Source: Escherichia phage KS_A3. Taken from it: a DNA stretch of 58,418 bases. How positions within the stretch are numbered: the first letter of the stretch is position 1; the number at the start of each line of letters is the position of its first letter. Of the stretch, positions 5,756-52,950 are shown piece by piece. Location: sequence record PP627278.1; one strand, 5' to 3'. The notes under the pieces were generated by a model. The model was not told the DNA's origin, did not search any database, and saw only the letters and a list, made by a program, of their open reading frames with translations. A program made the translations under genes and the position numbers.

Positions 5756-5786
5756 GGCTTCACTCAACGCCGCGCTGTAGTATTTT

Positions 5787-23163: not shown

Positions 23164-23504
23164 TATGCTTTCCCTTTACGACATAAGGCTTGAAGTTCCA
23201 GAAGCGCATCAATGTCTTCCTGTGGAGTTACACCAACGTGAATTGGATATTTAGCGCAACATTCGTTGCTGACTTCAACAGTGTGGTTAATGTAGCCGTA
23301 AACACATCCACCAATAACAGTGAAGATAAGCGCAACAATCATTGTAAGGTACTTACCTTGTTTGCGTTCTTCATTTTGTTTATTAAGCTGACGGTTAAGT
23401 TCCACCGCGTCAATTTTACCTTTATTGTAATCGTCTACTAAGCTCATTTTGTATCTCCTCTTGTTGTATGCATATATTAAAACAGACCCGCGAAGGGTCT
23501 GCAA
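23163..23504 (-). CDS. hypothetical membrane-anchored protein
   Basis: 113 aa with central transmembrane helix. Confidence 0.4.
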   Translation of the reverse strand: MQTLRGSVLIYAYNKRRYKMSLVDDYNKGKIDAVELNRQLNKQNEERKQGKYLTMIVALIFTVIGGCVYGYINHTVEVSNECCAKYPIHVGVTPQEDIDALLELQALCRKGKA

Positions 23505-23511
23505 GTAGAAT

Positions 23512-25497
23512 TTAGGCGTATCCCATGTCTTCGAGATACTTCTCTGCTTTAGCTATATAAGCATCATAATCTATGTCGTCCGGTATTTTATCCGGTAGCG
23601 TCATGATCGGGACGCCTCCCGCGCTACCAGCTACACGGTTGCCCGAGTTAACATAGATTATTTCAGGTGTTTCTTCATTAGTGCTTAAGTACCAGCGTAC
23701 AACCTTACCCAAAAATTCGCCATTCCATACCGCGCCGCCTTTTACCGCACGTAAGATAATGAATTTTCTAATATCGTTGCAATTGCGTATAGTACGAGAA
23801 ACAGGCGTACCGTGGGCCAAACATTCACATACAGCTTCCATAATAATCTCACCAGTACAGTTCTTTTGAAGACCTGTCTTTGCGAACCACCCTTTACGCT
23901 TAATTTCAACATTTCCTTCCTCGTCAGGTTCTTTTACTGCAACATAGTTATTGACGTTAGCACTGTACAGCTTGTCATAGTAGTTGGATTCCATTTCAAA
24001 ACCTGTTACGGATTCCCACCACTTGATCATATTATCAACGAAGTCCTGCATATGGTCCGGATACTTAACCACAATACCATCCGTGTTGGCTGAAATTACT
24101 TTAACACCGTTCAGCTCAAACGCTTCAATAAGCATCAACAGTGAAAGCTGTCCGGTTAATGTAACTTGTATCAATAATTGGGGCGCGTACAGTACAGACC
24201 ACATGGACCCCAACTTACCGAACGATCCGTTGATAACGATCTTCAGCGTGTTGGCTGTGTTCTTATCCCCTGAGTGCTTAGCTGCAATACGACGATCTAC
24301 AATACTCTTATAAACACGAAGGAACGCTGGTCCCAACTGTTCTGGATATAAGCCCTGATTAAGAATGATTGAAGGATAATAAGACGTTACGTCAATGTCC
24401 CGCTTTTTGATACCAGGCTCTTTACCGTGGCCAGCGCACTCTTCGGAGCTATGCAAACCACCAATACCCATACGGTAGACACCGTCCGCAATCTTGATCT
24501 CAAGACCTGTTAATGCAGGAGGTAAGCTAACACCACCGTTATCGCTAACAATAAAGCGACAGTCCCGAACAATATCCAAAACACTATTCATCAAAGGTGT
24601 TTGAAAACGAATAAAGCCCGGTATGTTGTATGCATACTTTGTTCCAGGATAAACTTGCGGACGATGTGGGCGCACGCCCGTTAACGCTTGAATTTCGTGC
24701 TTAATCACGTCTTCTGCAATCTGTGCATCGGAGCGTGAACGCAGGTCCACACCGTATTCTTTCGACATGATTTCACGCAAGTGGATAGGCTCTTGCAATG
24801 CAATAAAACATTCTTCCGTCTGTACAAGGTCGTTAATACAGTACCATCGCACAATTAACATCTGGTCCTGCGTCAACATGGTATTTGGTTTGAACGGTAA
24901 ATCCTGCATACGGCGAGTATGTACACGTCCGCCATATTGTTTCAAACCACCGGACCCAGGCAGAACTTCCATAATATCAATGTGGTTAACGTTCTGCATA
25001 CGCTTAAGACGGTAACTCTTCAATACATCAGAAGGACGCCAGTCTTCAACGATTATTTTATCGGTCGCGTCTTTAAGCTGTGCATTAGAACAGCCATTAA
25101 GCGCAAGCGTAGCAATGGGCATATCGTACCCATTACCGTTAAAGCTCACGATAAGGAAGTTTGTCATTACCCAGTTAAGTAGCAAGCAATTCAAACTACA
25201 ACCGTGATACATTTCGAAGTAGACAACTTTCTTAGTCCTTACTCCGCGGAATGCGATCAAGAAGTAGTTTGGATAACATTCAATATCATATACAAGCGGT
25301 TCGCGATTAATCCATGCTTGAATAAGTTCGTCCTGTGTGTACAGGTTGTATTGGAAGTTCCGCGCTTCCTCAAGGTTAGGCAAATAATCCGGGCGCTCCC
25401 AAGTGCGCTCCGGCGGTAAACGTTTAACCTTTTCTTTCTTTGCTTTTGGCTCAGGCGGTAAGTCCTGCCAAAAGAAACCAATAGCATCTGTCCGCAT
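23512..25497 (-). CDS. DNA polymerase, family B, with 3'-5' exonuclease domain
   Basis: Exo motifs DIECY, NGNGYD, YCIND; polymerase motifs DVTSYYPS (motif A), KIVINGSFGK (motif B), NTDGIV (motif C); start set to ATG at 25497 overlapping upstream stop rather than track start 25551. Confidence 0.75.
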   Translation of the reverse strand: MRTDAIGFFWQDLPPEPKAKKEKVKRLPPERTWERPDYLPNLEEARNFQYNLYTQDELIQAWINREPLVYDIECYPNYFLIAFRGVRTKKVVYFEMYHGCSLNCLLLNWVMTNFLIVSFNGNGYDMPIATLALNGCSNAQLKDATDKIIVEDWRPSDVLKSYRLKRMQNVNHIDIMEVLPGSGGLKQYGGRVHTRRMQDLPFKPNTMLTQDQMLIVRWYCINDLVQTEECFIALQEPIHLREIMSKEYGVDLRSRSDAQIAEDVIKHEIQALTGVRPHRPQVYPGTKYAYNIPGFIRFQTPLMNSVLDIVRDCRFIVSDNGGVSLPPALTGLEIKIADGVYRMGIGGLHSSEECAGHGKEPGIKKRDIDVTSYYPSIILNQGLYPEQLGPAFLRVYKSIVDRRIAAKHSGDKNTANTLKIVINGSFGKLGSMWSVLYAPQLLIQVTLTGQLSLLMLIEAFELNGVKVISANTDGIVVKYPDHMQDFVDNMIKWWESVTGFEMESNYYDKLYSANVNNYVAVKEPDEEGNVEIKRKGWFAKTGLQKNCTGEIIMEAVCECLAHGTPVSRTIRNCNDIRKFIILRAVKGGAVWNGEFLGKVVRWYLSTNEETPEIIYVNSGNRVAGSAGGVPIMTLPDKIPDDIDYDAYIAKAEKYLEDMGYA

Positions 25498-26450
25498 TAG
25501 ACACGTTCTCCAATTAACACACCGCGAAGATTTTCCCCAAAGAATGCGCAAGGTTGCGGATATAAACTAAAGTCCGCAGTCTTAACCACATTTTCGAGTA
25601 ATAACAGGATGTCGATATTGTAAACTCCCGTTATTGATCTGTCCTGCAATACGAAGCTTGCACCTTCTGCATCATCGTAATGAGTACGCGCTAGACCGTT
25701 TTCAATATATACGCGAGGACGATCTTCCGCAAAAGGTTTGATTTTATGCAATCCCTCAAAAAGACCTGGATCAACAGGATGTGCATTGCATTGAACATTT
25801 AAAATACGACGTATATCGGGCCACTCCGCATCAATAAGCTGTGTTCGCAACCAGCGACCTTCCGGATAATGAAATGTGACATTGTTCTTGCTAACCTGAA
25901 TATGTGTCGGGTTAGCTTTAATGCGCAGTATTTCTTTGATAGCAACAGACGGTATTATGCAGTCAATAGGGAATTGATTACCGAACCAATATTCCGCAAT
26001 AGTGACGTTATTTGTAGCAAACAAGCTACCGTTATTGATCAGAATACCGCAAGCCCACGGACGGGAAGCATCGGACCCAACAAATGGAGCAACGGACTTT
26101 ACACCATGCACGAAGCGAGCGCCGTCTATTTCGTACAAATCGCCTTCAGGGAATACGTGCGGCGTTTCTTTATCAATGCAGCGTATAGCAACACGAAACG
26201 GACCGGACTTGATATTTAACTTACCGTTAGCCATCATTGTTAGCTGCACTGTTTCATCGCAGTTCGAAATAGCTTTAATCATAGGCCCAGCTTCGGGCTT
26301 GCAATCAATATCCAGCTCAATAGGGCTACCCAGTGCAATAACACCGTTAAAGCCCTGTACCTGTCCGTCACGAATAAGAAAACTGGTAAGCCCTTCTACC
26401 AGTTCCTTCTTCGCTACGGAGCCTTGAACAAATTTAAGAGCGTCTAACAT
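25497..26450 (-). CDS. hypothetical protein, translationally coupled to DNA polymerase (possible processivity factor)
   Basis: 317 aa; TAATG overlap with polymerase start; function not established from sequence. Confidence 0.4.
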   Translation of the reverse strand: MLDALKFVQGSVAKKELVEGLTSFLIRDGQVQGFNGVIALGSPIELDIDCKPEAGPMIKAISNCDETVQLTMMANGKLNIKSGPFRVAIRCIDKETPHVFPEGDLYEIDGARFVHGVKSVAPFVGSDASRPWACGILINNGSLFATNNVTIAEYWFGNQFPIDCIIPSVAIKEILRIKANPTHIQVSKNNVTFHYPEGRWLRTQLIDAEWPDIRRILNVQCNAHPVDPGLFEGLHKIKPFAEDRPRVYIENGLARTHYDDAEGASFVLQDRSITGVYNIDILLLLENVVKTADFSLYPQPCAFFGENLRGVLIGERV

Positions 26451-26677
26451 TAGCGGTCCTCGATTGCTCTAATTGTGGTTAAATCTAATTCACAGGTTGG
26501 AGGGTATCCATAAAGTCCCATTTGTTTTCCTTGTGCATTAAACCATGTACCTGACGGATCCTGCCACTGCTTAGGTGTCTTGTGGAGAAATACTACTCTG
26601 TTTTCACCGTAATAATTAATTCTTACTCCTGTGTGAGTATATTTACGTTTACCTTTTGGTCTTCTTAAGTTAGCCAT
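26450..26677 (-). CDS. hypothetical protein
   Basis: 75 aa basic ORF, ATGA-type overlap with neighbours. Confidence 0.4.
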   Translation of the reverse strand: MANLRRPKGKRKYTHTGVRINYYGENRVVFLHKTPKQWQDPSGTWFNAQGKQMGLYGYPPTCELDLTTIRAIEDR

Positions 26678-27597
26678 CAGAACAACTCCATTACACGATC
26701 ACGGAATGTGCCGTCATGGGTAGCGTTAATGTTTGCAGCAATTACACCATACGCCCATAAGTTGAAGGCAGCACGTGATTCATAGATTGTTGATAAACGT
26801 TCGTAAGTGAAACCGTTTTGCTCAAGGTATTTAAGGACAGCGTCTTGTTCAATTTCAGTTAATGTTGAAACATGCTTACCAAAATGATGGCGGTCCGGTG
26901 ACTTATCTGATACGCGCATTGGTCCCCACGGAGGGGTAACCACACTTCCAAACGCTGCCGCTTGAATCCAGGAGGATGAGTCACAGCTATACCACGGATA
27001 ACGCTCCATAATGGTTGTGGACGTAATACCAAACGCATGAAGTTTAATTTTAGCACGTCCGCTACCGTCGCAAATATATTTGTCCCACATGCGGTCCAGC
27101 CAAGTTTTAAGCGTGTCCGTTGAACGTCCTACCATGCCCCCAATGGTGATATATTCGTAGTTCTTCATGTAGTATTCAAGATAGCGGAAGTCCTCCCCAA
27201 AGTGAAAGCAAGGTAACGGTTTAGCACCGCGTGCTTCCATTTCAAGCTGGTTACGGTAGGTTTGCAACGGGTCACCAATACCGTCGAGCACCGACGCCAT
27301 TACAGCACCATCTTCTACGCGAAGGATGTCTTTGTTACGCTTGATGTATTCGCAGTATTCAACAATATCAATGTGAGCACCCAAAGAGTGCGCGGAGAAT
27401 GCACCTGAGTCGAGAAACACTTTAGCCCCATCCGCACGCATTTGATCAACATACTTCTGACGTCCAACGTAGTGGTATGATTCCAAAATATTTGGAAGGC
27501 TATTAACAATGTCTTTTTCCCGATCGTTTAACTTTTCATATCGTTGTTGACCAGCTTTATAGCCGTTGGTATATACCGCAGCGACAAACAGATGCAT
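26677..27597 (-). CDS. dpdA: DNA-guanine transglycosylase (tRNA-guanine transglycosylase-like, DpdA family)
   Basis: 306 aa; FLDSGAFS motif resembling the catalytic DSGG(F/Y)Q region of TGT enzymes; sits in operon with queC/D/E and folE. Confidence 0.65.
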   Translation of the reverse strand: MHLFVAAVYTNGYKAGQQRYEKLNDREKDIVNSLPNILESYHYVGRQKYVDQMRADGAKVFLDSGAFSAHSLGAHIDIVEYCEYIKRNKDILRVEDGAVMASVLDGIGDPLQTYRNQLEMEARGAKPLPCFHFGEDFRYLEYYMKNYEYITIGGMVGRSTDTLKTWLDRMWDKYICDGSGRAKIKLHAFGITSTTIMERYPWYSCDSSSWIQAAAFGSVVTPPWGPMRVSDKSPDRHHFGKHVSTLTEIEQDAVLKYLEQNGFTYERLSTIYESRAAFNLWAYGVIAANINATHDGTFRDRVMELF

Positions 27598-28154
27598 TAT
27601 TCCACCTCAAATTTATTACGCTTAGATCTGTTTTCTTCAATAGATAAGTATTGTAGGTTACTAAGGACGTGAAGTCCACTGACTCTTTTACCGCAAAGAG
27701 GTATAATATGATCAACCTCCATCCCATCCGGGCAGTTAGCGTAGAACAATTCAATTTGTTCTTTTTCAGACCACGCAGGGATTCTTAAAGACCTTTTCTT
27801 ATGCACTTCAAGGGAATGTAACCTTGATCTAGCTTTACCGTAATCTGTCTTAGCCCAGCGTTTCAGCCTTTCTTTATTTTGTTCTTTACCTTTCTCAGTA
27901 GAATTATAAGCAGCTTTTGAACGTTGAAGGGCTTCTTTTCCTTTCTGTGACTTATGGTATCTCTTAATAGCATTCCTTGCAGCTTCTGTTTTATTGTAAA
28001 TACGCATTCTTTTCTTTCGTGCTTCTCTGTCACAAGTAATACAATAGCCATCTACAGTCTTTCTTTCAGAAACATGACCTTTCGCACAAGGCTTACCAGT
28101 AAAATAATATTTCAAACCTCTTTCTTTTGCTTCAGCTCTTGTGATAATTTCCAT
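27597..28154 (-). CDS. HNH homing endonuclease
   Basis: 185 aa; Cys-rich zinc-binding N-terminus, DHIIPL...N HNH motif; inserted between dpdA and folE. Confidence 0.7.
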   Translation of the reverse strand: MEIITRAEAKERGLKYYFTGKPCAKGHVSERKTVDGYCITCDREARKKRMRIYNKTEAARNAIKRYHKSQKGKEALQRSKAAYNSTEKGKEQNKERLKRWAKTDYGKARSRLHSLEVHKKRSLRIPAWSEKEQIELFYANCPDGMEVDHIIPLCGKRVSGLHVLSNLQYLSIEENRSKRNKFEVE

Positions 28155-28224
28155 TGTCTTATACCAACTAAAAAGCCCATACCAGTATTATGACCGATAT
28201 GGGCTTGATCTGTAAAGCTATCTA

Positions 28225-34263: not shown

Positions 34264-36249
34264 TTAGAACGGAACGTAATCCGGATCTTCTACTTGTACA
34301 GGGTTAACCACATTGTTCACCGTTATACCTTGCGTATTCTGTGAAACAATATCATCCCAGCTCACATCATCATTATAGCTTGGCCCTTCTGTTGTTCCAT
34401 CCTGCCCGTATACTTTAACCTGAATAGCTTCGTCGTCGTCCTGTGGTGCTTCAAACTTACCGAAACACGTACCATCATAATCATAGTTCAATATCTCAGG
34501 CCATTTCTTATTGGTATGAACTTTGATGTATTTCGGCGTTTTGAGCATTGCAGCAACATCAAGAGCTTCTTCAATGGTTTGTGGTAAAGGAAGATGCGTC
34601 CTTTTCTTCCACCATGCAACCGCTATACGACCTGCCCAGTCACCGTGAAGTAGAGCTACCCATTCGCTGAATATTTTACTACCGCAATAATAAGTCACCT
34701 TCATTGTTGGAGGTTTGGAGCTATCATTGCGTTTAGTGTGCTTCGCATAAGTCACATGCGTAACTTTGAAGTCTTCAACTACCGGAATGTCCTGTTTGAT
34801 CAGTGCTTCGGTACTTGCTGCCTTTTTAAGTTTCGTCTGGAACTTAAACTCATGACCGCAAAATCCTTCTTTAACATAATCCGTTCCACGTAGTCTGAAT
34901 CCCTTCAAATATAATTGTTGAGCTTGTTCCTGTGTAACGCTGTCCATAGGAATTGGTGCAAAGCCACCGCAATAGCGAGCAGATGCATGATTATACGACC
35001 CGCACACATCGCATTCTTTAACCGGAGCAGTACCAGCACCTTTTTTGCCCGGACGCTTGGGTTTAACAGGGTCGTTAATAGGGCCCAAACGGCGCGTATT
35101 ACCGCTGAAATCCAGTACAAGGCAGTTCTGCTTAGGACTTGCTGCAATAGCTTGCAAGCGGCCTTCCTGCGTGGAAAGATCAAAGCCTTCCGCGTATACC
35201 GGACGCGTACCGCGACCTAGCATCTGAACCCATAGCACCGCCGACGCAGTGGGGCGAAGCATGATAATCAGATCAAGCATTGGATGGTCAAAACCTGTGG
35301 TTAAGACGTTGTTGTTCGTCAGCGCTCGAAACTCTCCACGCTTGAACTTTTCAATAATTTCGTCACGCTCTTTTGCATCAAGCTTTGAGTGAATACATCC
35401 GCAACTAATACCCATATCGTTCAGCATATCGCACGCATCTTTAGCGTGTTCAATACCCGAACAAAATATAAGCCAACTTTGACGGTCTTCACCACATTCA
35501 ATGGCTTCCTCAAGTGCGCGAAGTGTTGCATCGTCGCGGTTCACCGCACTTTGCAGCTCACTCTGAATAAACTCACCACCGCGTTTGCCCACCCCATTGA
35601 GGTCCAGTTCCATCTTTGTACGCTTTGGCACAACCGGAAGCAAATAGCCTTGCTCCAGGAACCAGTTAAAGGCTTCAGGGGTAGTTGCATCAAACGTTAC
35701 TTTATCAAATAAAGCATCATCGTCTTTGTTTTCCTTAACAATTGAGCCGTAACCCAGTCGGTAAGGTGTAGCGGTAAGACCGATAATTTTTAAATACGGG
35801 TTAACTTCACGCAATGCTGCAAAGAACTTCTTATACATTGTTGCATCACGCGGACTAATAAGGTGCGCTTCATCCACAAAGATTAGATCAACCTTGCCAA
35901 ACTTTTTAGGATGCTTAGCAACAGATGCAATCCCCGCAAATGTGATAAGATTATAAACTTCTTTACGCTTCAAACCTGCGCTGTAAATACCTGCTGGCGC
36001 TTCAGGCCAGACTTTCATTAATTTATCATAGTTTTGCGCGATCAACTCTTTGACGTGAGTTAACATCATTACGCGCTGGTTTGGATACCATTTATAAAGC
36101 AGATCGAGGAACCCCGCGATAACGAGCGATTTTCCTGTCCCTGTTGGTAACAGGATCAAAGGGTTCCCCGCGTTACCCTTTTCAGCATCAAAATAGCGGA
36201 ATACGCTATAAACTGCTTCCTGTTGATAATCGCGGAGCTGCATAATCAA
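34264..36249 (-). CDS. SF2 DEAD/DEAH-box DNA helicase
   Basis: 661 aa; Walker A LLPTGTGKS, DEAH box FVDEAH; C-terminal Cys-containing segment. Confidence 0.75.
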   Translation of the reverse strand: MIMQLRDYQQEAVYSVFRYFDAEKGNAGNPLILLPTGTGKSLVIAGFLDLLYKWYPNQRVMMLTHVKELIAQNYDKLMKVWPEAPAGIYSAGLKRKEVYNLITFAGIASVAKHPKKFGKVDLIFVDEAHLISPRDATMYKKFFAALREVNPYLKIIGLTATPYRLGYGSIVKENKDDDALFDKVTFDATTPEAFNWFLEQGYLLPVVPKRTKMELDLNGVGKRGGEFIQSELQSAVNRDDATLRALEEAIECGEDRQSWLIFCSGIEHAKDACDMLNDMGISCGCIHSKLDAKERDEIIEKFKRGEFRALTNNNVLTTGFDHPMLDLIIMLRPTASAVLWVQMLGRGTRPVYAEGFDLSTQEGRLQAIAASPKQNCLVLDFSGNTRRLGPINDPVKPKRPGKKGAGTAPVKECDVCGSYNHASARYCGGFAPIPMDSVTQEQAQQLYLKGFRLRGTDYVKEGFCGHEFKFQTKLKKAASTEALIKQDIPVVEDFKVTHVTYAKHTKRNDSSKPPTMKVTYYCGSKIFSEWVALLHGDWAGRIAVAWWKKRTHLPLPQTIEEALDVAAMLKTPKYIKVHTNKKWPEILNYDYDGTCFGKFEAPQDDDEAIQVKVYGQDGTTEGPSYNDDVSWDDIVSQNTQGITVNNVVNPVQVEDPDYVPF

Positions 36250-45258: not shown

Positions 45259-45290
45259 AAATAAAGGGCCTTTCGGCCCTTTATTTATTC
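45258..45290. terminator. bidirectional terminator
   Basis: AAAGGGCC-TTTC-GGCCCTTT hairpin flanked by A- and T-runs; between convergent genes. Confidence 0.55.
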
Positions 45291-47627
45291 CTCTTCTCCT
45301 AAGTTTGCCATAATACCTTCAACATCTTGCGTAATGCGCCAAGCTGCGCCAGTGAATCCCAGTTTGATAGTCTCCTCCCGTGTTACCGGAACAAGAGCAC
45401 CCATAGCAACCATTTCCTTGATCGTAGACTCGATCGCTGCGGACAATCCGTGGTGATAGTTTTTAAACGCGGACTTACTTGCAAGACGAGTAGTAATATC
45501 ACCCCGCGTGATAATGCCTTCCTTACGCAGATCTACACGTTTAACTTTCACCCAATCTTTAGTTAGATAATTCACACAAACCTGGCACATAGTACGGATA
45601 CGAGCTTCGTCATTAGTACCGATACCCCCACTATGCCATTCCTTCATAATGATATCCTGTCCATGACGCACAAAGTCCAAGGCCCATTGAACATGATAGG
45701 TCTGCACAACCGGATTGATCCAGTTTTCTCCCACAGCTAGCAGGGCGGATAGACGTAATACCTTCAGGTGCGCACGGTTCCAGGGCTGACGGATTGCTTC
45801 GTCTTTGGTTGCGTTAATATTACGGTCACATTCGTCGTTAAACTGATCACATAATGCTTCCGCATCCGGGCTAAACTGCACTTCAATACTTTGATGCTTT
45901 GCCATTGCGACTAAGGTGTGGTTAACAAGATGGCACACCATATCCCGCAAATGCTGATCCATTGTAGTCTGCTGGTTCTTGTTTAAAGGTGGTCGATCCC
46001 CTTCATAGCGGACAACATGGAAACGGGATAAGAAACCATCCTCCATCATTTCACGCGTCAACGCTTCAAAAAACGTGTCCGGTGTCGTTTCGCCCATGAT
46101 GCTATAGGCTACACCTTGTTGAGCTTCCGTATTATTAGCCTTATCAGAATAAGACATACCACCGACAATAGACATCTGACCGGACTTTTGATAAACATCG
46201 GTAAGGTCGTTCTTGAAGCTTTGCATCGGTGAACCTGCTGGCGCCGTTGCCATCGCTTTAATAATCTTACCAAACTCACCATTCAAGTTGATAAAAGATT
46301 GTTTGTCCGCAAAAGATTTACGCAGTGCGGAGCCGGAAGCACATCGGTCAAAAGATACAAAGCTATGAATCTGCGGAAACGGTTCCTGAAGCTGGCTAAC
46401 TATATTAGATAAGCCACTGTTCAACGTTTCTTTACCAACACCAGAACGGGCAATAAGGACGAAATATCCATTAAGACCGGATTGAGGAATCTGCCAAACC
46501 TTCCCGCATACGCCAGCCATAAATCCTAGTGCTGTCACAATAGAAATTTCTTTCACTGGCCGGACGGATGCTTTGTAGATGTACTTCGCAAGCTCCCCAG
46601 CAAGTCCCGGCGGCCAGTCAATAGCGGTTGCATCAATAGATGTACTTTCTGCAACTACTGTCTGCCCCTGTGTTGTTTCAACAGTTACGGGCATTTCCGC
46701 TACCTGCTGCATTGCACTGTGTGCCGCTTGCATACGGGCAGCATAATCCCGCGCCAGCGCCGCTACGTTTTCCTGGGCAATGCGCTCACGCTCCATACGA
46801 CCGCGGCACATGCGCAAACAACGGTCAATATGAACATTGTTCTTATTAGCCTTCTCACGTTTGCCCAGTGCACTGTAACGGAACAGACGGCGACATTGCT
46901 CATTACTTTCTGTGTAGAATGCATACATAGAAATAAGAGCAAGATCTGCTTCAGACTGGGAAGGGAATCCCATTTCAACCCATTCGCCATTGAATAGGCG
47001 TGCATACTTGTCCCCGTTGTCCGCTTCAAGTGCACGCTGGTGAATAGTTGCATCGTCTTCTACCGGATCTTTTTCTACCAGTTCAATTTCATATGTCTTG
47101 CGCTGAAGATCAATTTCATTCACAAGCATAGTAAGGTAATGATCACGTTCTGCAACTGGTTTGTTGTAGACGGGATTGCCCGTGCAGATAATAAAACGCT
47201 CCTGACTATAAACCTCGACACCATCACGTCGACGACCTTTACCGATGTTACCTCTTAACCACAGGTGAACACCCAAGCCTGAGCGGCTCACTTCGGTGTA
47301 AGTATCGAACGCAGTCATGATCTGTTCGAAGCGGCGCAACTGCTCCGGCGTCGTGTGCTTCTTGGGATCTGGTTCATTGGTTGCATTCTTCACATCCAGG
47401 TCGATGCAGGTGAACGGGTCTTGTGCAGTAAGCACAAAGCCAATATAAGGTTTATTGAAATGAGCGGCGCAACCTTTGGCAGCTTCAAACGTCATAAGCA
47501 TATCCGGATCGGTAACGTCCGCCGTCATCAAACGTCCAATATCGCTATCCCATACCAACGGCTTTTTATCCGCATCGGCGACCGCCCATTGTGGGAAAGC
47601 TTTAATTTCAGCGGGAAACAGTTCCAT
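45285..47627 (-). CDS. DNA primase (archaeo-eukaryotic primase / prim-pol type) with C-terminal NTPase-like domain
   Basis: 780 aa; AEP motifs CIDLDVK and SRSGLGVHLW; downstream P-loop-like ARSGVGKET. Confidence 0.6.
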   Translation of the reverse strand: MELFPAEIKAFPQWAVADADKKPLVWDSDIGRLMTADVTDPDMLMTFEAAKGCAAHFNKPYIGFVLTAQDPFTCIDLDVKNATNEPDPKKHTTPEQLRRFEQIMTAFDTYTEVSRSGLGVHLWLRGNIGKGRRRDGVEVYSQERFIICTGNPVYNKPVAERDHYLTMLVNEIDLQRKTYEIELVEKDPVEDDATIHQRALEADNGDKYARLFNGEWVEMGFPSQSEADLALISMYAFYTESNEQCRRLFRYSALGKREKANKNNVHIDRCLRMCRGRMERERIAQENVAALARDYAARMQAAHSAMQQVAEMPVTVETTQGQTVVAESTSIDATAIDWPPGLAGELAKYIYKASVRPVKEISIVTALGFMAGVCGKVWQIPQSGLNGYFVLIARSGVGKETLNSGLSNIVSQLQEPFPQIHSFVSFDRCASGSALRKSFADKQSFINLNGEFGKIIKAMATAPAGSPMQSFKNDLTDVYQKSGQMSIVGGMSYSDKANNTEAQQGVAYSIMGETTPDTFFEALTREMMEDGFLSRFHVVRYEGDRPPLNKNQQTTMDQHLRDMVCHLVNHTLVAMAKHQSIEVQFSPDAEALCDQFNDECDRNINATKDEAIRQPWNRAHLKVLRLSALLAVGENWINPVVQTYHVQWALDFVRHGQDIIMKEWHSGGIGTNDEARIRTMCQVCVNYLTKDWVKVKRVDLRKEGIITRGDITTRLASKSAFKNYHHGLSAAIESTIKEMVAMGALVPVTREETIKLGFTGAAWRITQDVEGIMANLGEEE

Positions 47628-47638
47628 GATTTATCCTT

Positions 47639-52465: not shown

Positions 52466-52717
52466 ATGTGCGACTCCAGTGCAAGCGCTGCACCCAGCAC
52501 CTCCAGCAATGTGGTTACAGAGGTAAATGCAATGCGATTAGGCCCATATCGCGGGTATTATGGTCGGGCAGCATGGAATGACGCTACTCAACGTTTTGAA
52601 GGCTGGATTATCTGTCCGGAACGTGTTAAATTTCACTCCGTAAAAGAGAAAAATATCGTTCTTAATTTTCAAAAATGTGTCACTAAATATGTAGAGGAGC
52701 AAGAAGAATGCGTGTAA
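52466..52717 (+). CDS. hypothetical protein
   Basis: 83 aa, strong SD GAGGAGG. Confidence 0.5.
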   Translation: MCDSSASAAPSTSSNVVTEVNAMRLGPYRGYYGRAAWNDATQRFEGWIICPERVKFHSVKEKNIVLNFQKCVTKYVEEQEECV

Positions 52718-52950
52718 AAGACGAGCAAAAGACAGTTGACTACTTCGGAATGCAAATTGTTGTTCCGGAATGGGTTAAATGGCTTGCTGTCGATGGTGAC
52801 GGTAAATTATTCGGTTATGAATGTGAGCCCGACATTTTAGTTAATGAAGATTGGGATGAATGGTACAGTGAAGAAGGTAAATGCCGCTGCATTACAGAAG
52901 TCATCCTTGAAGAAGAACATTGGTCACAAACCTTAGTGGAGCTTTTTTAA
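52708..52950 (+). CDS. hypothetical protein, paralogous family member
   Basis: 80 aa; VPEWVKWLAVDGDGKLFGYE...WSQTLVEL. Confidence 0.5.
   Translation: MRVKDEQKTVDYFGMQIVVPEWVKWLAVDGDGKLFGYECEPDILVNEDWDEWYSEEGKCRCITEVILEEEHWSQTLVELF

What the first reader, a model, noticed from the sequence alone, without database searches (positions are those of the whole stretch)
23512..26450. Compact family B DNA polymerase translationally coupled to an unknown 317-aa upstream protein
The polymerase has clear exonuclease (DIECY, NGNGYD, YCIND) and polymerase (DVTSYYPS, KIVINGSFGK, NTDGIV) motifs but is only about 660 aa, short for family B. Its ATG overlaps the stop of a 317-aa ORF of unknown function that may be an accessory or processivity subunit. 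A polymerase that must copy 7-deazaguanine-containing template is of enzymological interest.
Basis: partly seen in the sequence, partly recalled or inferred. Interest (0 to 1): 0.4.

Follow-up and report, generated by a model that had tools for sequence, protein, structure and literature searches.

The report
Phage sliding clamp with docked polymerase
The "unknown" 317-aa protein is a phage copy of the bacterial ring-shaped DNA sliding clamp. Public records already annotate it that way. Comparative evidence suggests that both the compact polymerase downstream and the DNA-modifying enzyme DpdA upstream dock onto it through short terminal peptides.

Summary
On the minus strand a 317-aa ORF (25497-26450) ends in TAATG, which starts a 661-aa family B polymerase (23512-25497) carrying all six quoted motifs.

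The window is a Seuratvirus, 100% identical here to Escherichia phage KS_S4. GenBank already calls the pair "DNA polymerase" and "DNA polymerase processivity factor". The 317-aa protein models confidently (pLDDT 92) as a three-domain DnaN/beta clamp. So the basic finding is ordinary and already annotated.

Three points go beyond the annotation:
- **Polymerase N-terminus.** Residues 1-45 form a disordered, highly conserved module (MRxDAxGFFWxD, Lys-rich linker, PPxxxWxxPxYLP). The same module heads unrelated family A polymerases encoded after the same clamp. It is missing from the nearest PolB and PolA relatives in loci with no clamp gene.
- **DpdA.** It ends in a beta-clamp-binding-like tail (..RVMELF; family consensus QxxLF). 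Across several deep DpdA clades the gene sits directly upstream of a clamp gene. ParB-linked DpdAs have neither tail nor clamp.
- **Clamp loader.** None is detectable in the phage.

Binding itself is inferred and untested. I found no paper describing these links. The polymerase is probably not specialised for 7-deazaguanine templates.

The parts
23512..25497 (-). Compact family B DNA polymerase, 661 aa, with a 3'-5' exonuclease domain
   Evidence: ORF. PHROG 1252 at E 4e-228. PDB phmmer hits to PolB1 and Pol II. AF2 model pLDDT 90.9 with Foldseek hits to archaeal PolB, Pol II and pol alpha. GenBank product 'DNA polymerase'.
25363..25497 (-). N-terminal module of the polymerase (aa 1-45): MRTDAIGFFWQDLPP, a Lys-rich linker, then PPERTWERPDYLPNL. 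Proposed clamp-docking adaptor.
   Evidence: R2, D4, G7, F9, W10, D12, P14, P28, W33, Y38, L39 and P40 are invariant in 37 homologues at 53-92% identity. Residues 1-13 have pLDDT <50. The module is homologous to the N-terminus of family A polymerases of phages Bhz54 and Ssp-JY38: 41% identity over 58 aa, E 5e-9, with the rest of the proteins unrelated. It co-occurs with a clamp gene.
25273..25287 (-). Exo I motif DIECY
   Evidence: D71 and E73 are invariant.
25123..25140 (-). Exo II motif NGNGYD
   Evidence: N120 and D125 are invariant.
24829..24843 (-). Exo III motif YCIND
   Evidence: Y219, N222 and D223 are invariant.
24370..24399 (-). Polymerase motif A, DIDVTSYYPS
   Evidence: D367, D369, S372, Y374 and P375 are invariant.
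24214..24243 (-). Polymerase motif B, KIVINGSFGK
   Evidence: It aligns to motif B of PolB1 and Pol II.
24070..24093 (-). Polymerase motif C, SANTDGIV. The family-wide form is NTD rather than the canonical DTD.
   Evidence: S469-G474 are invariant. It aligns to 'GDTDS' of PolB1 and Pol II.
25497..26450 (-). DnaN-type (beta) sliding clamp homologue, 317 aa, three domains
   Evidence: PHROG 947 at E 5e-82. Pfam DNA_pol3_beta_2 at E 1.7e-4, below the cut-off. AF2 pLDDT 92.3. Foldseek PDB hits are all bacterial beta clamps: E 2e-20, TM 0.8, 14-17% identity. hhalign to E. coli DnaN gives E 1.4e-5. The ATNN and WPDIRRIL segments align to E. coli ATDG(H) and FPDYRRVL.
25495..25499 (-). TAATG stop/start overlap between clamp and polymerase
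   Evidence: In related loci, 36 of 55 clamp-to-polymerase junctions overlap by 1-14 nt.
26450..26677 (-). 75-aa ORF of unknown function between DpdA and the clamp. It is not conserved outside close relatives.
   Evidence: PHROG 38388, function unknown. It is absent in Bhz54 and Ssp-JY38, where DpdA abuts the clamp.
26677..27597 (-). DpdA (7-deazaguanine DNA transglycosylase), 306 aa
   Evidence: PHROG 887 at E 4e-94. GenBank products are 'queuine tRNA-ribosyltransferase' and '7-deazaguanosine inserting enzyme'. The CAjan orthologue is required for dPreQ0 in DNA (PMC6884629).
26680..26697 (-). C-terminal tail of DpdA, RVMELF. Proposed clamp-binding motif (family consensus QxxLF at the C-terminus).
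   Evidence: The tail is conserved at the end of an otherwise variable C-terminal region in 33 and 17 clamp-linked loci. It is enriched in 150 diverse representatives: 45% against a 2.2% background. It is absent from ParB-linked DpdAs.
27597..28154 (-). HNH/endonuclease VII-like ORF, 185 aa. First gene of the tightly overlapped five-gene block and probably a homing endonuclease.
   Evidence: PHROG 1035 'endonuclease VII' at E 2e-16. TAATG junction with DpdA.
28173..28206 (-). Terminator-like hairpin (14-bp stem plus T run) upstream of the five-gene block
   Evidence: This is a consensus scan only, and the overall hit count is not above the shuffled expectation.
23482..23502 (-). Terminator-like hairpin (8-bp stem, 5 GC pairs, T run) 10 nt after the polymerase stop codon
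   Evidence: Consensus scan only.

Best explanation
The region encodes the core of the phage replicase: a DnaN-type sliding clamp (317 aa) followed by a compact proofreading family B polymerase (661 aa). Both are expressed from a tightly overlapped five-gene unit that also holds DpdA.

**Shown here**
- The identity and fold of both proteins.
- Intact catalytic motifs in the polymerase.
- The stop/start overlap.
- Conserved synteny with DpdA.
- The distribution of the terminal motifs across related loci.

**Inferred**
1. The clamp forms a DNA-encircling ring, a head-to-tail dimer as in bacterial beta. It keeps the canonical hydrophobic protein-binding cleft.
2. The polymerase docks into that cleft through its disordered N-terminal peptide (..DAIGFFW.., a variant of the beta-binding pentapeptide QL[SD]LF). 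The peptide is held on a Lys-rich flexible linker and followed by a second conserved element, PPxxxWxxPxYLP.
3. DpdA docks on the same clamp through its C-terminal ..QxxLF-type tail (here RVMELF). Guanine-to-preQ0 base exchange would then take place on freshly replicated duplex behind the fork.
4. The phage has no recognisable clamp loader. The clamp would therefore be loaded by the host DnaX complex, or would assemble on DNA without a loader.
For: **Identity**
- The clamp fold is confident and full length. Pocket-lining segments align to E. coli beta T172, P242, R246 and V247.
- Polymerase fold and motifs.
- Independent database annotation agrees.

**N-terminal tether**
- Residues 1-13 are disordered in the model, yet near-invariant across homologues down to about 53% identity.
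- In 80 IMG/VR PolB loci, an N-terminal aromatic motif or extension tracks an upstream clamp gene. Counts are 41 motif+/clamp+, 25 motif-/clamp-, 5 and 2 discordant; Fisher p 1.7e-12, not phylogenetically corrected.
- Family A polymerases (Pfam DNA_pol_A, E 1e-63) encoded directly after the same clamp carry the homologous module. That held in 24 of 24 evaluable loci. Two more distant PolA relatives lack both the module and the clamp.
- In a third set, UDG-like/PolA proteins encoded after the clamp begin with M-x-GFF in at least 39 of 51 loci.

**DpdA tether**
- C-terminal QxxLF-type tails occur in every clamp-linked DpdA of the two closest sets.
- A clamp gene lies 0-2 kb downstream in 76 of 79 loci of a distant DpdA clade.
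- Bacillus phage Flasso DpdA is 30% identical, ends ..QGKLF, and sits two small ORFs upstream of a canonical DnaN.
- The 24 ParB-linked DpdA loci have no clamp and no tail.
- Motif against clamp gives 34/15/3/28, p 1.5e-7.

**No loader**
- Pfam and PHROG scans of the larger unassigned ORFs, plus the full KS_S4 annotation, show none.
Against: - All docking claims rest on co-occurrence and on resemblance to known motifs.
- The co-occurrence counts are not phylogenetically independent. Most come from a few clades.
- AIGFFW lacks the Gln of the canonical motif.
- The motif patterns were partly defined after looking at the data.
- The second conserved element (PPxxxWxxPxYLP) has pLDDT of about 78-90. 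It may pack on something other than the clamp.
- The N-terminal module could bind another replisome partner that is co-inherited with the clamp.
- Rosebush DpdA has no tail and no clamp, yet modifies about 28% of G. A clamp tether is therefore not required for efficient modification in general.
- Fifteen clamp-linked DpdAs in the mixed set lack the strict motif.
- The oligomeric state and loading route of the clamp are unknown.
Confidence: 0.72

Rival explanations
1. The clamp-fold protein is a loader-independent processivity subunit rather than a topologically closed, loaded ring. It would bind duplex DNA directly as a monomer or open dimer and stay stably bound to the polymerase, as HSV UL42, CMV UL44 and PhiKZ Rhc do.
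For: No clamp loader is encoded. The tight translational coupling suggests stoichiometric co-production. PhiKZ uses a clamp-derived subunit in this way (bioRxiv 10.64898/2026.09.30.755723). The Lys-rich linker in the polymerase could contribute DNA contacts.
Against: The protein keeps all three beta-clamp domains with full-length structural coverage of ring-forming bacterial clamps. It also keeps cleft-lining residues and a beta-like C-terminal segment. The polymerase contact appears to be a short disordered peptide, which is typical of exchangeable clamp clients. A second client (DpdA) appears to use the same hub, which fits a tool-belt ring better than a dedicated subunit.
Confidence: 0.2
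2. The polymerase N-terminal module is a docking element for a different replisome partner, such as the SF2 helicase, the primase-helicase or the DUF669 SSB-like protein. It tracks the clamp gene only because the whole replication module is inherited together.
For: The co-occurrence data are clade-structured. The PolB-to-PolA swap happened inside otherwise similar replication modules with helicase, Cas4 exonuclease and que genes. The second conserved element, PPxxxWxxPxYLP, has no precedent as a clamp motif.
Against: Homologues of the helicase also occur near clamp-less, extension-less polymerases (4 loci). In three polymerase architectures the motif-bearing gene is the one immediately after the clamp, often overlapping its stop codon. 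The GFF/LF core resembles known beta-binding peptides. A similar terminal motif sits on the other clamp neighbour, DpdA.
Confidence: 0.12
3. The DpdA C-terminal tail is a structural or catalytic element of the enzyme, or it targets the host beta clamp. On this reading DpdA-clamp synteny only reflects co-expression of middle genes.
For: The tail consensus (QxxLF, QDSLFEL) is essentially the host-type clamp-binding motif. Rosebush-type DpdAs work without it. No structure or binding data exist.
Against: The region just upstream of the tail varies in sequence and length, while the terminal residues are kept. That pattern is typical of a linear motif. Synteny with a phage-encoded clamp holds across DpdA clades at 30-45% identity and across four polymerase types. 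The alternative ParB-linked clade lacks both features. Binding the host clamp as well is not excluded and would still amount to a clamp tether.
Confidence: 0.25
4. The polymerase is a specialised enzyme adapted to copy 7-deazaguanine-modified templates.
For: It is encoded in the same transcription unit as DpdA. The template carries dPreQ0 at about 32% of G in the close relative CAjan.
Against: The same PolB family is widespread in phages without DpdA. DpdA-encoding relatives use PolA, UDG-PolA or DnaE-like polymerases instead. The CAjan dpdA mutant is viable. Ordinary polymerases copy this DNA. The 7-position lies in the major groove, away from the Watson-Crick edge (established chemistry).
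Confidence: 0.08

Closest known systems
E. coli DNA polymerase II (family B) with the DnaN beta clamp
   Same: A family B proofreading polymerase is tethered to a three-domain DnaN-type clamp through a short hydrophobic peptide resembling QL[SD]LF. Pol II is among the structural hits, and E. coli beta is among the top clamp hits.
   Different: The Pol II motif (QLGLF) is C-terminal (established knowledge). Here the candidate motif is at the extreme N-terminus, on a Lys-rich linker, with a second conserved element. The phage polymerase is about 120 aa shorter. It is only 12-15% identical in the structural alignment to its top hits, Pol II included, and the clamp is 14-17% identical to bacterial clamps. 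The clamp is phage-encoded, with no phage loader.
T4/RB69 gp43 polymerase, gp45 clamp and gp44/62 loader
   Same: A phage-encoded family B replicase paired with a phage-encoded sliding clamp. The clamp also serves as a hub for other proteins.
   Different: gp45 is a PCNA-type trimer of two-domain subunits. gp43 binds it through its C-terminal tail, and T4 encodes its own loader (established knowledge; review PMC3012046 listed). Here the clamp is DnaN-type, the tether is N-terminal, and no loader is encoded.
Herpesvirus UL30-UL42 and UL54-UL44, and PhiKZ DNAP-Rhc
   Same: A family B polymerase paired with a clamp-fold processivity factor in a virus that encodes no clamp loader.
   Different: Those factors are monomers or open dimers that bind DNA directly (established knowledge; PhiKZ Rhc: bioRxiv 10.64898/2026.09.30.755723). 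The protein here keeps the complete three-domain beta architecture and cleft residues. Whether it closes into a ring is untested.
Clamp-tethered DNA-modifying or DNA-processing enzymes (DNMT1-PCNA, MutS/MutL-beta, Tn3 TnpA-beta, phage Mu MuC-beta)
   Same: A non-polymerase enzyme carries a terminal clamp-binding peptide that couples its activity to replication. The DpdA tail (QxxLF at the C-terminus) fits this pattern.
   Different: No base-exchange (transglycosylase) DNA-modification enzyme has been reported to use a clamp, as far as my searches show. Here the clamp is phage-encoded and genomically fused into the same operon.
Other phage-encoded DnaN homologues annotated 'replicative clamp' or 'DNA polymerase III beta subunit' (Pseudomonas phage 73, Acinetobacter phage Loki, Rhizobium phage RHEph04, Enterobacteria phage 9g)
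   Same: They belong to the same PHROG and the same clamp family, which is found in 361 phage records. The synteny is the same, with the clamp immediately upstream of the polymerase.
   Different: These are annotations only, and I found no biochemical or structural study. Details differ between clades. The phage 73 clamp ends in an SSB-like ..DDIPF tip and its polymerase ends ..ALSFF. The Loki polymerase starts MTLFN.

Membership tests
Family B DNA polymerase | Exo I (DxE), Exo II (Nx2-3[FY]D) and Exo III (Yx3D) motifs | tested here: met
   DIECY, NGNGYD and YCIND are present, with the key residues invariant in 37 homologues.
Family B DNA polymerase | Polymerase motifs A (DxxSLYPS), B (KxxxNSxYG) and C (DTDS) | tested here: met
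   The motifs are DIDVTSYYPS, KIVINGSFGK and SANTDG. Motif C is a family-wide NTD variant. Motifs B and C align to Sulfolobus PolB1 and E. coli Pol II.
Family B DNA polymerase | Overall PolB fold (exonuclease, palm, fingers, thumb) | tested here: met
   A pLDDT 90.9 model gives Foldseek E 1e-15 to 1e-13 to archaeal PolB, Pol II and pol alpha over about 720 aligned columns.
Family B DNA polymerase | Match to curated Pfam PolB models above the gathering score | tested here: not met
   Only DNA_pol_B_exo2 matched, at E 0.029 and 14.5 bits against a cut-off of 24. The family is too divergent for the Pfam models. PHROG 1252 matches at E 4e-228.
Protein-primed (phi29-like) compact PolB | Closest structural similarity to phi29-type polymerases, with TPR1/TPR2 insertions | tested here: inconclusive
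   None of the top 50 Foldseek PDB hits is a phi29-type polymerase. The insertions were not examined residue by residue. No terminal protein gene is annotated.
DnaN / beta sliding clamp | Three tandem clamp-fold domains in one roughly 320-380 aa chain | tested here: met
   AF2 pLDDT 92.3. Foldseek gives TM 0.8 and about 357-370 aligned columns to bacterial DnaN structures, E 2e-20.
DnaN / beta sliding clamp | Sequence match to Pfam DNA_pol3_beta domains above the gathering score | tested here: not met
   DNA_pol3_beta_2 matched at E 1.7e-4 and 22.3 bits against a cut-off of 27. hhalign to E. coli DnaN gives E 1.4e-5. PHROG 947 matches at E 5e-82. More distant family members next to DpdA do pass Pfam.
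DnaN / beta sliding clamp | Hydrophobic protein-binding cleft between domains II and III | tested here: inconclusive
   Alignment puts phage T146, P211, R215 and I216 opposite E. coli T172, P242, R246 and V247. 'WPDIRRIL' lies opposite 'FPDYRRVL', and ..LIGERV opposite ..VMPMRL. No 3-D inspection was possible.
DnaN / beta sliding clamp | Head-to-tail homodimer forming a closed ring, loaded by an AAA+ clamp loader | not testable with these tools
   Multimer modelling was not available. No loader is encoded by the phage.
Bacterial clamp-binding motif (QL[SD]LF type) clients | Short hydrophobic peptide of the form x-[LIM]-x-[LF]-F in a disordered terminal region | tested here: met
   The polymerase has ..AIGFFW.. 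in residues 5-10, with pLDDT <50. DpdA ends ..VMELF, and the family consensus is QxxLF. The Gln is absent from the polymerase motif.
Bacterial clamp-binding motif (QL[SD]LF type) clients | Demonstrated binding to the clamp cleft | not testable with these tools
   This needs peptide-binding assays or complex modelling.
DpdA (DNA 7-deazaguanine transglycosylase) | Homology to phage DpdA that is genetically shown to insert preQ0 into DNA | tested here: met
   The protein is 95.8% identical to CAjan DpdA. CAjan dpdA is required for dPreQ0 (PMC6884629). FolE, QueD, QueC and QueE genes are adjacent.

The most novel reading that the evidence does not exclude
In a large group of phages, the phage-encoded DnaN-type clamp acts as a hub that couples replication to DNA hypermodification. 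DpdA rides the clamp through a C-terminal QxxLF tail and swaps guanine for 7-deazaguanine on nascent duplex. Whichever polymerase the phage uses (PolB, PolA or UDG-PolA) plugs into the same clamp through a portable N-terminal 'xGFF' adaptor module that has moved between non-homologous polymerases. A second, ParB-linked DpdA lineage would target DNA by a different route.
Probability: 0.45. Interest if true: 0.75.

Novelty: new variant of a known kind. Interest (0 to 1): 0.55.

Why it matters
Taken alone, the polymerase-clamp pair is routine and already annotated. The surrounding pattern gives three concrete, testable ideas.

1. **Replication-coupled DNA modification.** A clamp tether on DpdA would explain how a base-exchange enzyme reaches newly made phage DNA. 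It would be a bacterial-virus counterpart of PCNA-coupled maintenance methylation. It would also make the timing of 7-deazaguanine insertion, and its incomplete level, open to experiment.

2. **A portable docking module.** If one N-terminal module really sits on unrelated polymerase catalytic cores, it shows how replisome parts are swapped while the clamp interface is kept. It would also provide a short peptide for engineering clamp-dependent polymerases.

3. **A clamp without a loader.** A DnaN-type clamp with no phage loader raises the question of whether the host DnaX complex is hijacked.

The clamp cleft and these peptides could also serve as tools or targets in work on phages with modified DNA.

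Tried and rejected
- **Pfam on both proteins.** It gave only sub-threshold hits. PHROGs and structure prediction were needed.
- **Clamp loader search.** Pfam and PHROG scans of the ten larger unassigned or replication ORFs, plus the full KS_S4 annotation, found none.
- **Hidden clamps in the 'clamp-less' loci.** An iterated HMM that included E. coli DnaN and a canonical phage DnaN found no more in the 33 PolB loci without a clamp.
- **Is translational coupling special to clamp and polymerase?** Rejected. Four consecutive junctions in the block have 1-nt overlaps. Seuratvirus SHIN8 has two small ORFs inserted between clamp and polymerase. Fourteen of 55 related junctions have gaps above 50 nt.
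- **Specialisation for deazaguanine templates.** Rejected on distribution and on the literature.
- **phi29-like, protein-primed reading of 'compact PolB'.** Not supported by the fold hits.
- **Single-sequence locus searches.** Two distant DpdA representatives found nothing. Alignment-based searches worked.
- **Does the N-terminal module track another replication gene?** The ±6 kb flanks limit this test. Helicase homologues occur in both clamp+ and clamp- loci.
- **Primase N-terminus (MELF..) as a further clamp client.** It is not conserved in RHEph04, and no other homologues were in hand, so I dropped it.
- **Literature searches.** Searches for any DpdA-clamp link or any Queuovirinae processivity-factor study found nothing relevant.

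Full report
**1. What is in the sequence**

On the minus strand, the ORF listing gives a 317-aa ORF at 25497..26450 and a polymerase ORF ending at 23512. The junction reads GTC-TAATG-CGG. The polymerase ATG at 25497 therefore shares its A with the TAA stop of the upstream ORF, and a GGAG lies about 10 nt upstream. The tool's TTG start at 25551 (679 aa) is not supported. Homologues align from M-R-x-D, and GenBank uses the ATG, which gives 661 aa.

**2. Provenance and existing annotation**

The region is 100% identical to Escherichia phage KS_S4 (Queuovirinae, Seuratvirus) and 93-97% identical to CAjan, Seurat, slur01 and other relatives. Those records already annotate the two genes as 'DNA polymerase' (or 'DNA polymerase B') and 'DNA polymerase processivity factor' (or 'beta subunit').

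PHROGs agree: phrog_1252 at E 4e-228 and phrog_947 at E 5e-82. Pfam does not reach its cut-offs for either protein. That explains why a reader working from the sequence alone saw an 'unknown' protein.

**3. The 317-aa protein is a DnaN-type clamp**

- An AF2 model built on 37 homologues has pLDDT 92.3.
- Its best Foldseek PDB matches are all bacterial beta clamps: E about 2e-20, TM 0.8, about 357-370 aligned columns, 14-17% identity.
- hhalign to E. coli DnaN gives E 1.4e-5.
- In a mixed alignment, the invariant phage 'ATNN' lies opposite E. coli 'ATDG(H)', 'WPDIRRIL' lies opposite 'FPDYRRVL', and the C-terminal ..LIGERV lies opposite ..VMPMRL.

From established structural work on E. coli beta, T172, P242, R246, V247 and the C-terminal residues line the protein-binding cleft. 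The cleft therefore appears to be retained. This is an alignment-level inference, not a structural inspection.

The family occurs in 361 phage records, including Queuovirinae, Septimatrevirus, Lokivirus, Rhizobium myoviruses and Rosemountvirus.

**4. The polymerase**

A pLDDT 90.9 model matches archaeal PolB, E. coli Pol II and pol alpha over its whole length. The family is very large, with more than 7,900 hits and 1,019 phage records. It is typically 590-680 aa, so about 660 aa is normal for the family. Motif C is invariantly S-A-N-T-D-G, that is NTD rather than DTD.

**5. The N-terminal module**

Residues 1-13 are disordered in the model (pLDDT <50). They are nevertheless among the most conserved in the family: R2, D4, G7, F9, W10, D12 and P14 are invariant. 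A Lys-rich linker follows, then a second conserved element with P28, W33, Y38, L39 and P40 invariant. 'A-I-G-F-F' fits the x-h-small-h-F pattern of the bacterial clamp-binding pentapeptide. The consensus QL[SD]LF, and Pol II QLGLF, come from established knowledge.

Three comparative tests were run.

(a) *PolB loci.* In 80 IMG/VR loci holding this PolB family, 47 have a clamp gene immediately upstream and 33 do not. An iterated HMM that included E. coli DnaN found no further clamps.
- Polymerases next to a clamp carry a 47-72 aa N-terminal extension. It contains G[FLM]FW in the close clade, or M-F-F-[DE] at the extreme N-terminus in a clade with divergent clamps.
- Polymerases in loci without a clamp gene start a few residues before Exo I.
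- The counts are 41/5/2/25, Fisher p 1.7e-12. This is not corrected for phylogeny.

(b) *Family A polymerases.* Stenotrophomonas phage Bhz54 and Synechococcus phage Ssp-JY38 have the same DpdA-clamp arrangement, but the polymerase after the clamp is family A (Pfam DNA_pol_A, E 1e-63 and 6e-71).
- Its first roughly 55 residues (MRFDAIGMFWEDVPVK...PPIPDTGWRPPTYLPDL) are homologous to the window PolB N-terminus: 41% identity over 58 aa, E 5e-9. The rest of the two proteins is unrelated.
- In 27 IMG/VR loci of this PolA lineage, all 24 evaluable members with the module follow a clamp gene. Two more distant PolAs lack both the module and the clamp.

(c) *UDG-like/PolA proteins.* In a third set of loci, gathered through a distant DpdA clade, the gene after the clamp is a UDG-like/PolA protein in 51 cases. 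It begins M-x-G-F-F in at least 39 of them. Most of the rest have close variants such as MAFF, MLFF or VKGFF. Thirteen loci have a PHP/DnaE-like polymerase without such a motif.

A short aromatic N-terminal peptide is thus shared by three polymerase architectures, and in each case the gene is encoded right after the clamp. I infer that this peptide is the clamp-docking element. Binding itself was not tested.

**6. DpdA**

The gene two positions upstream (26677..27597) is DpdA, 95.8% identical to the CAjan protein. CAjan DpdA is required for dPreQ0, which replaces about 32% of G (PMC6884629). The window protein ends ..RDRVMELF.

- *Close sets.* In the 33 PolB-set and 17 PolA-set loci that contain DpdA, the C-terminus always carries a [Q/M]-x-[LF]-F-type tail. 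Examples are QELF, QDLF, MGLF, QPLLF and QTLF. The region just before the tail varies.
- *Diverse representatives.* Among 150 diverse DpdA representatives at 50% clustering, 68 have [LF]F within the last six residues, against a background of 22 of 990 long ORFs. Forty-one have Q-x(1,2)-[LF]F, against a background of 4 of 990.
- *Synteny in a distant clade.* In a DpdA clade with tails of the form WPWPFK...GFGL or ..GLF, 76 of 79 complete genes are followed within 0-2 kb by a clamp-family gene on the same strand. Two of the three exceptions lie at contig ends and the third is on a 5-kb contig.
- *Bacillus phage Flasso.* Its DpdA is 30% identical, ends ..SQGKLF, and lies two small ORFs upstream of a Pfam-confirmed DnaN.
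- *ParB-linked clade.* DpdAs of the Rosebush and Mufasa8 type, plus 24 IMG/VR loci, have tails of the form ..LWxKRGxxW. They have neither an [LF]F tail nor a clamp within 10 kb.
- *Mixed set.* Strict motif against clamp gives 34/15/3/28, p 1.5e-7.

I infer that clamp-linked DpdAs dock on the clamp. I found no paper mentioning this. One caveat: Rosebush reaches about 28% modification without tail or clamp. The tether would therefore be one of at least two targeting strategies.

**7. Operon context and loading**

HNH-like, DpdA, the 75-aa ORF, clamp and polymerase form a block with four 1-nt overlaps. The block is bracketed by the only two strong terminator-like hairpins in the neighbourhood, at 28206..28173 and 23502..23482. 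That scan is a consensus match only, and its total hit count is not above chance.

Across related loci, 36 of 55 clamp-to-polymerase junctions overlap, but 14 have gaps above 50 nt. SHIN8 has two ORFs inserted between the genes. Coupling is common but not obligatory.

No clamp loader is recognisable among the phage genes. Some family members (phage 73, and IMG/VR loci L062 and L024) end their clamp with an SSB-like ..DDIPF tip. From established knowledge, the SSB tip binds the chi subunit of the host loader, which hints at host-loader recruitment. The window clamp lacks this tip. The loading route remains open.

**8. Comparison and verdict**

Functionally, the closest analogue is E. coli Pol II with beta: a family B polymerase on a DnaN clamp, tethered by a peptide. 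T4 gp43-gp45 is the closest phage analogue. Herpesvirus UL42/UL44 and PhiKZ Rhc are the loader-free alternatives.

The apparently new elements are the N-terminal, portable nature of the polymerase tether, the absence of a loader, and the clamp-DpdA link. All three rest on comparative inference. I rate the basic finding as ordinary and the extended picture as a moderately interesting new variant that can be tested with simple peptide-binding, primer-extension and tail-deletion experiments.

Noticed in passing
window 52708-52950 (+): An 80-aa early-region ORF (PHROG 1972, function unknown) ends ..WSQTLVELF. This is the same ELF-type tail as on DpdA. It could be another clamp binder, or an inhibitor of the host clamp.
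   Followed up: no
window 45289-47628 (-) approx. (KS_S4 CDS0066, L002:15400-17739) and 34268-36244 (-) approx. (KS_S4 CDS0047, L002:4379-6355): The 780-aa primase-polymerase/helicase starts MELFPAEIKAF. The SF2 helicase ends ..VEDPDYVPF, which resembles the SSB C-terminal tip. The primase N-terminus is not conserved in Rhizobium phage RHEph04.
   Followed up: partly
L119 (Pseudomonas phage 73) 2254-3396 and 3408-5459; IMG/VR loci L062 and L024: Some clamps of this family carry a C-terminal ..DDIPF tip like E. coli SSB. The phage 73 polymerase ends ..AALSFF, and polymerases of that clade often end K[LF]F. The position of the clamp-binding motif seems to differ between clades.
   Followed up: partly
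L118 (Escherichia phage SHIN8) 2468-3060: Two small ORFs (about 109 and 94 aa) are inserted between clamp and polymerase in a Seuratvirus that is otherwise 96% identical. They may be a mobile insertion. Their presence shows the stop/start overlap is dispensable.
   Followed up: yes
window 24070-24093 (-): Polymerase motif C is invariantly S-A-N-T-D-G across the family. The first Asp of the canonical DTD is an Asn.
   Followed up: partly
L077 and L080 (IMG/VR), polymerase ORFs starting near 5757 and 5751: Two PolB relatives have a 132-aa N-terminal extension containing ..FHFDLFGGE.. before the Lys-rich linker, and no phage clamp within 6 kb. They may use the host clamp. One clamp-less PolB (L058) ends ..KQMELFV.
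   Followed up: no
L121-L200 (IMG/VR), genes downstream of the clamp: In distant DpdA-clamp loci the polymerase after the clamp is a UDG-like (CxxCGL, GEAPG) domain fused to or split from PolA in 51 loci, and a PHP/DnaE-like polymerase in 13. The DpdA-clamp pair is therefore kept while the polymerase type changes.
   Followed up: partly
L083 (Rosebush), L090 (Mufasa8), L084 (Cellulophaga phi3ST:2), L201-L220: A separate DpdA lineage is always adjacent to a ParB-like gene instead of a clamp. In phi3ST:2, which also encodes a canonical DnaN 2.5 kb downstream, the ParB-like protein ends ..SVNLF.
   Followed up: partly
window 27597-28154 (-): An HNH/endonuclease VII-like ORF sits between FolE and DpdA and overlaps DpdA by 1 nt. 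It is probably a homing endonuclease. Two more HNH genes are annotated elsewhere in the KS_S4 genome.
   Followed up: partly
window 28173-28206 (-) and 23482-23502 (-): Two strong terminator-like hairpins bracket the five-gene block. A promoter-like match (TTTACA-18-CATAAT, 28216..28187) overlaps the upstream hairpin.
   Followed up: partly
window 26450-26677 (-): The 75-aa basic ORF between DpdA and the clamp (PHROG 38388) is confined to close relatives. Other lineages have none, or different small ORFs, at this position.
   Followed up: partly
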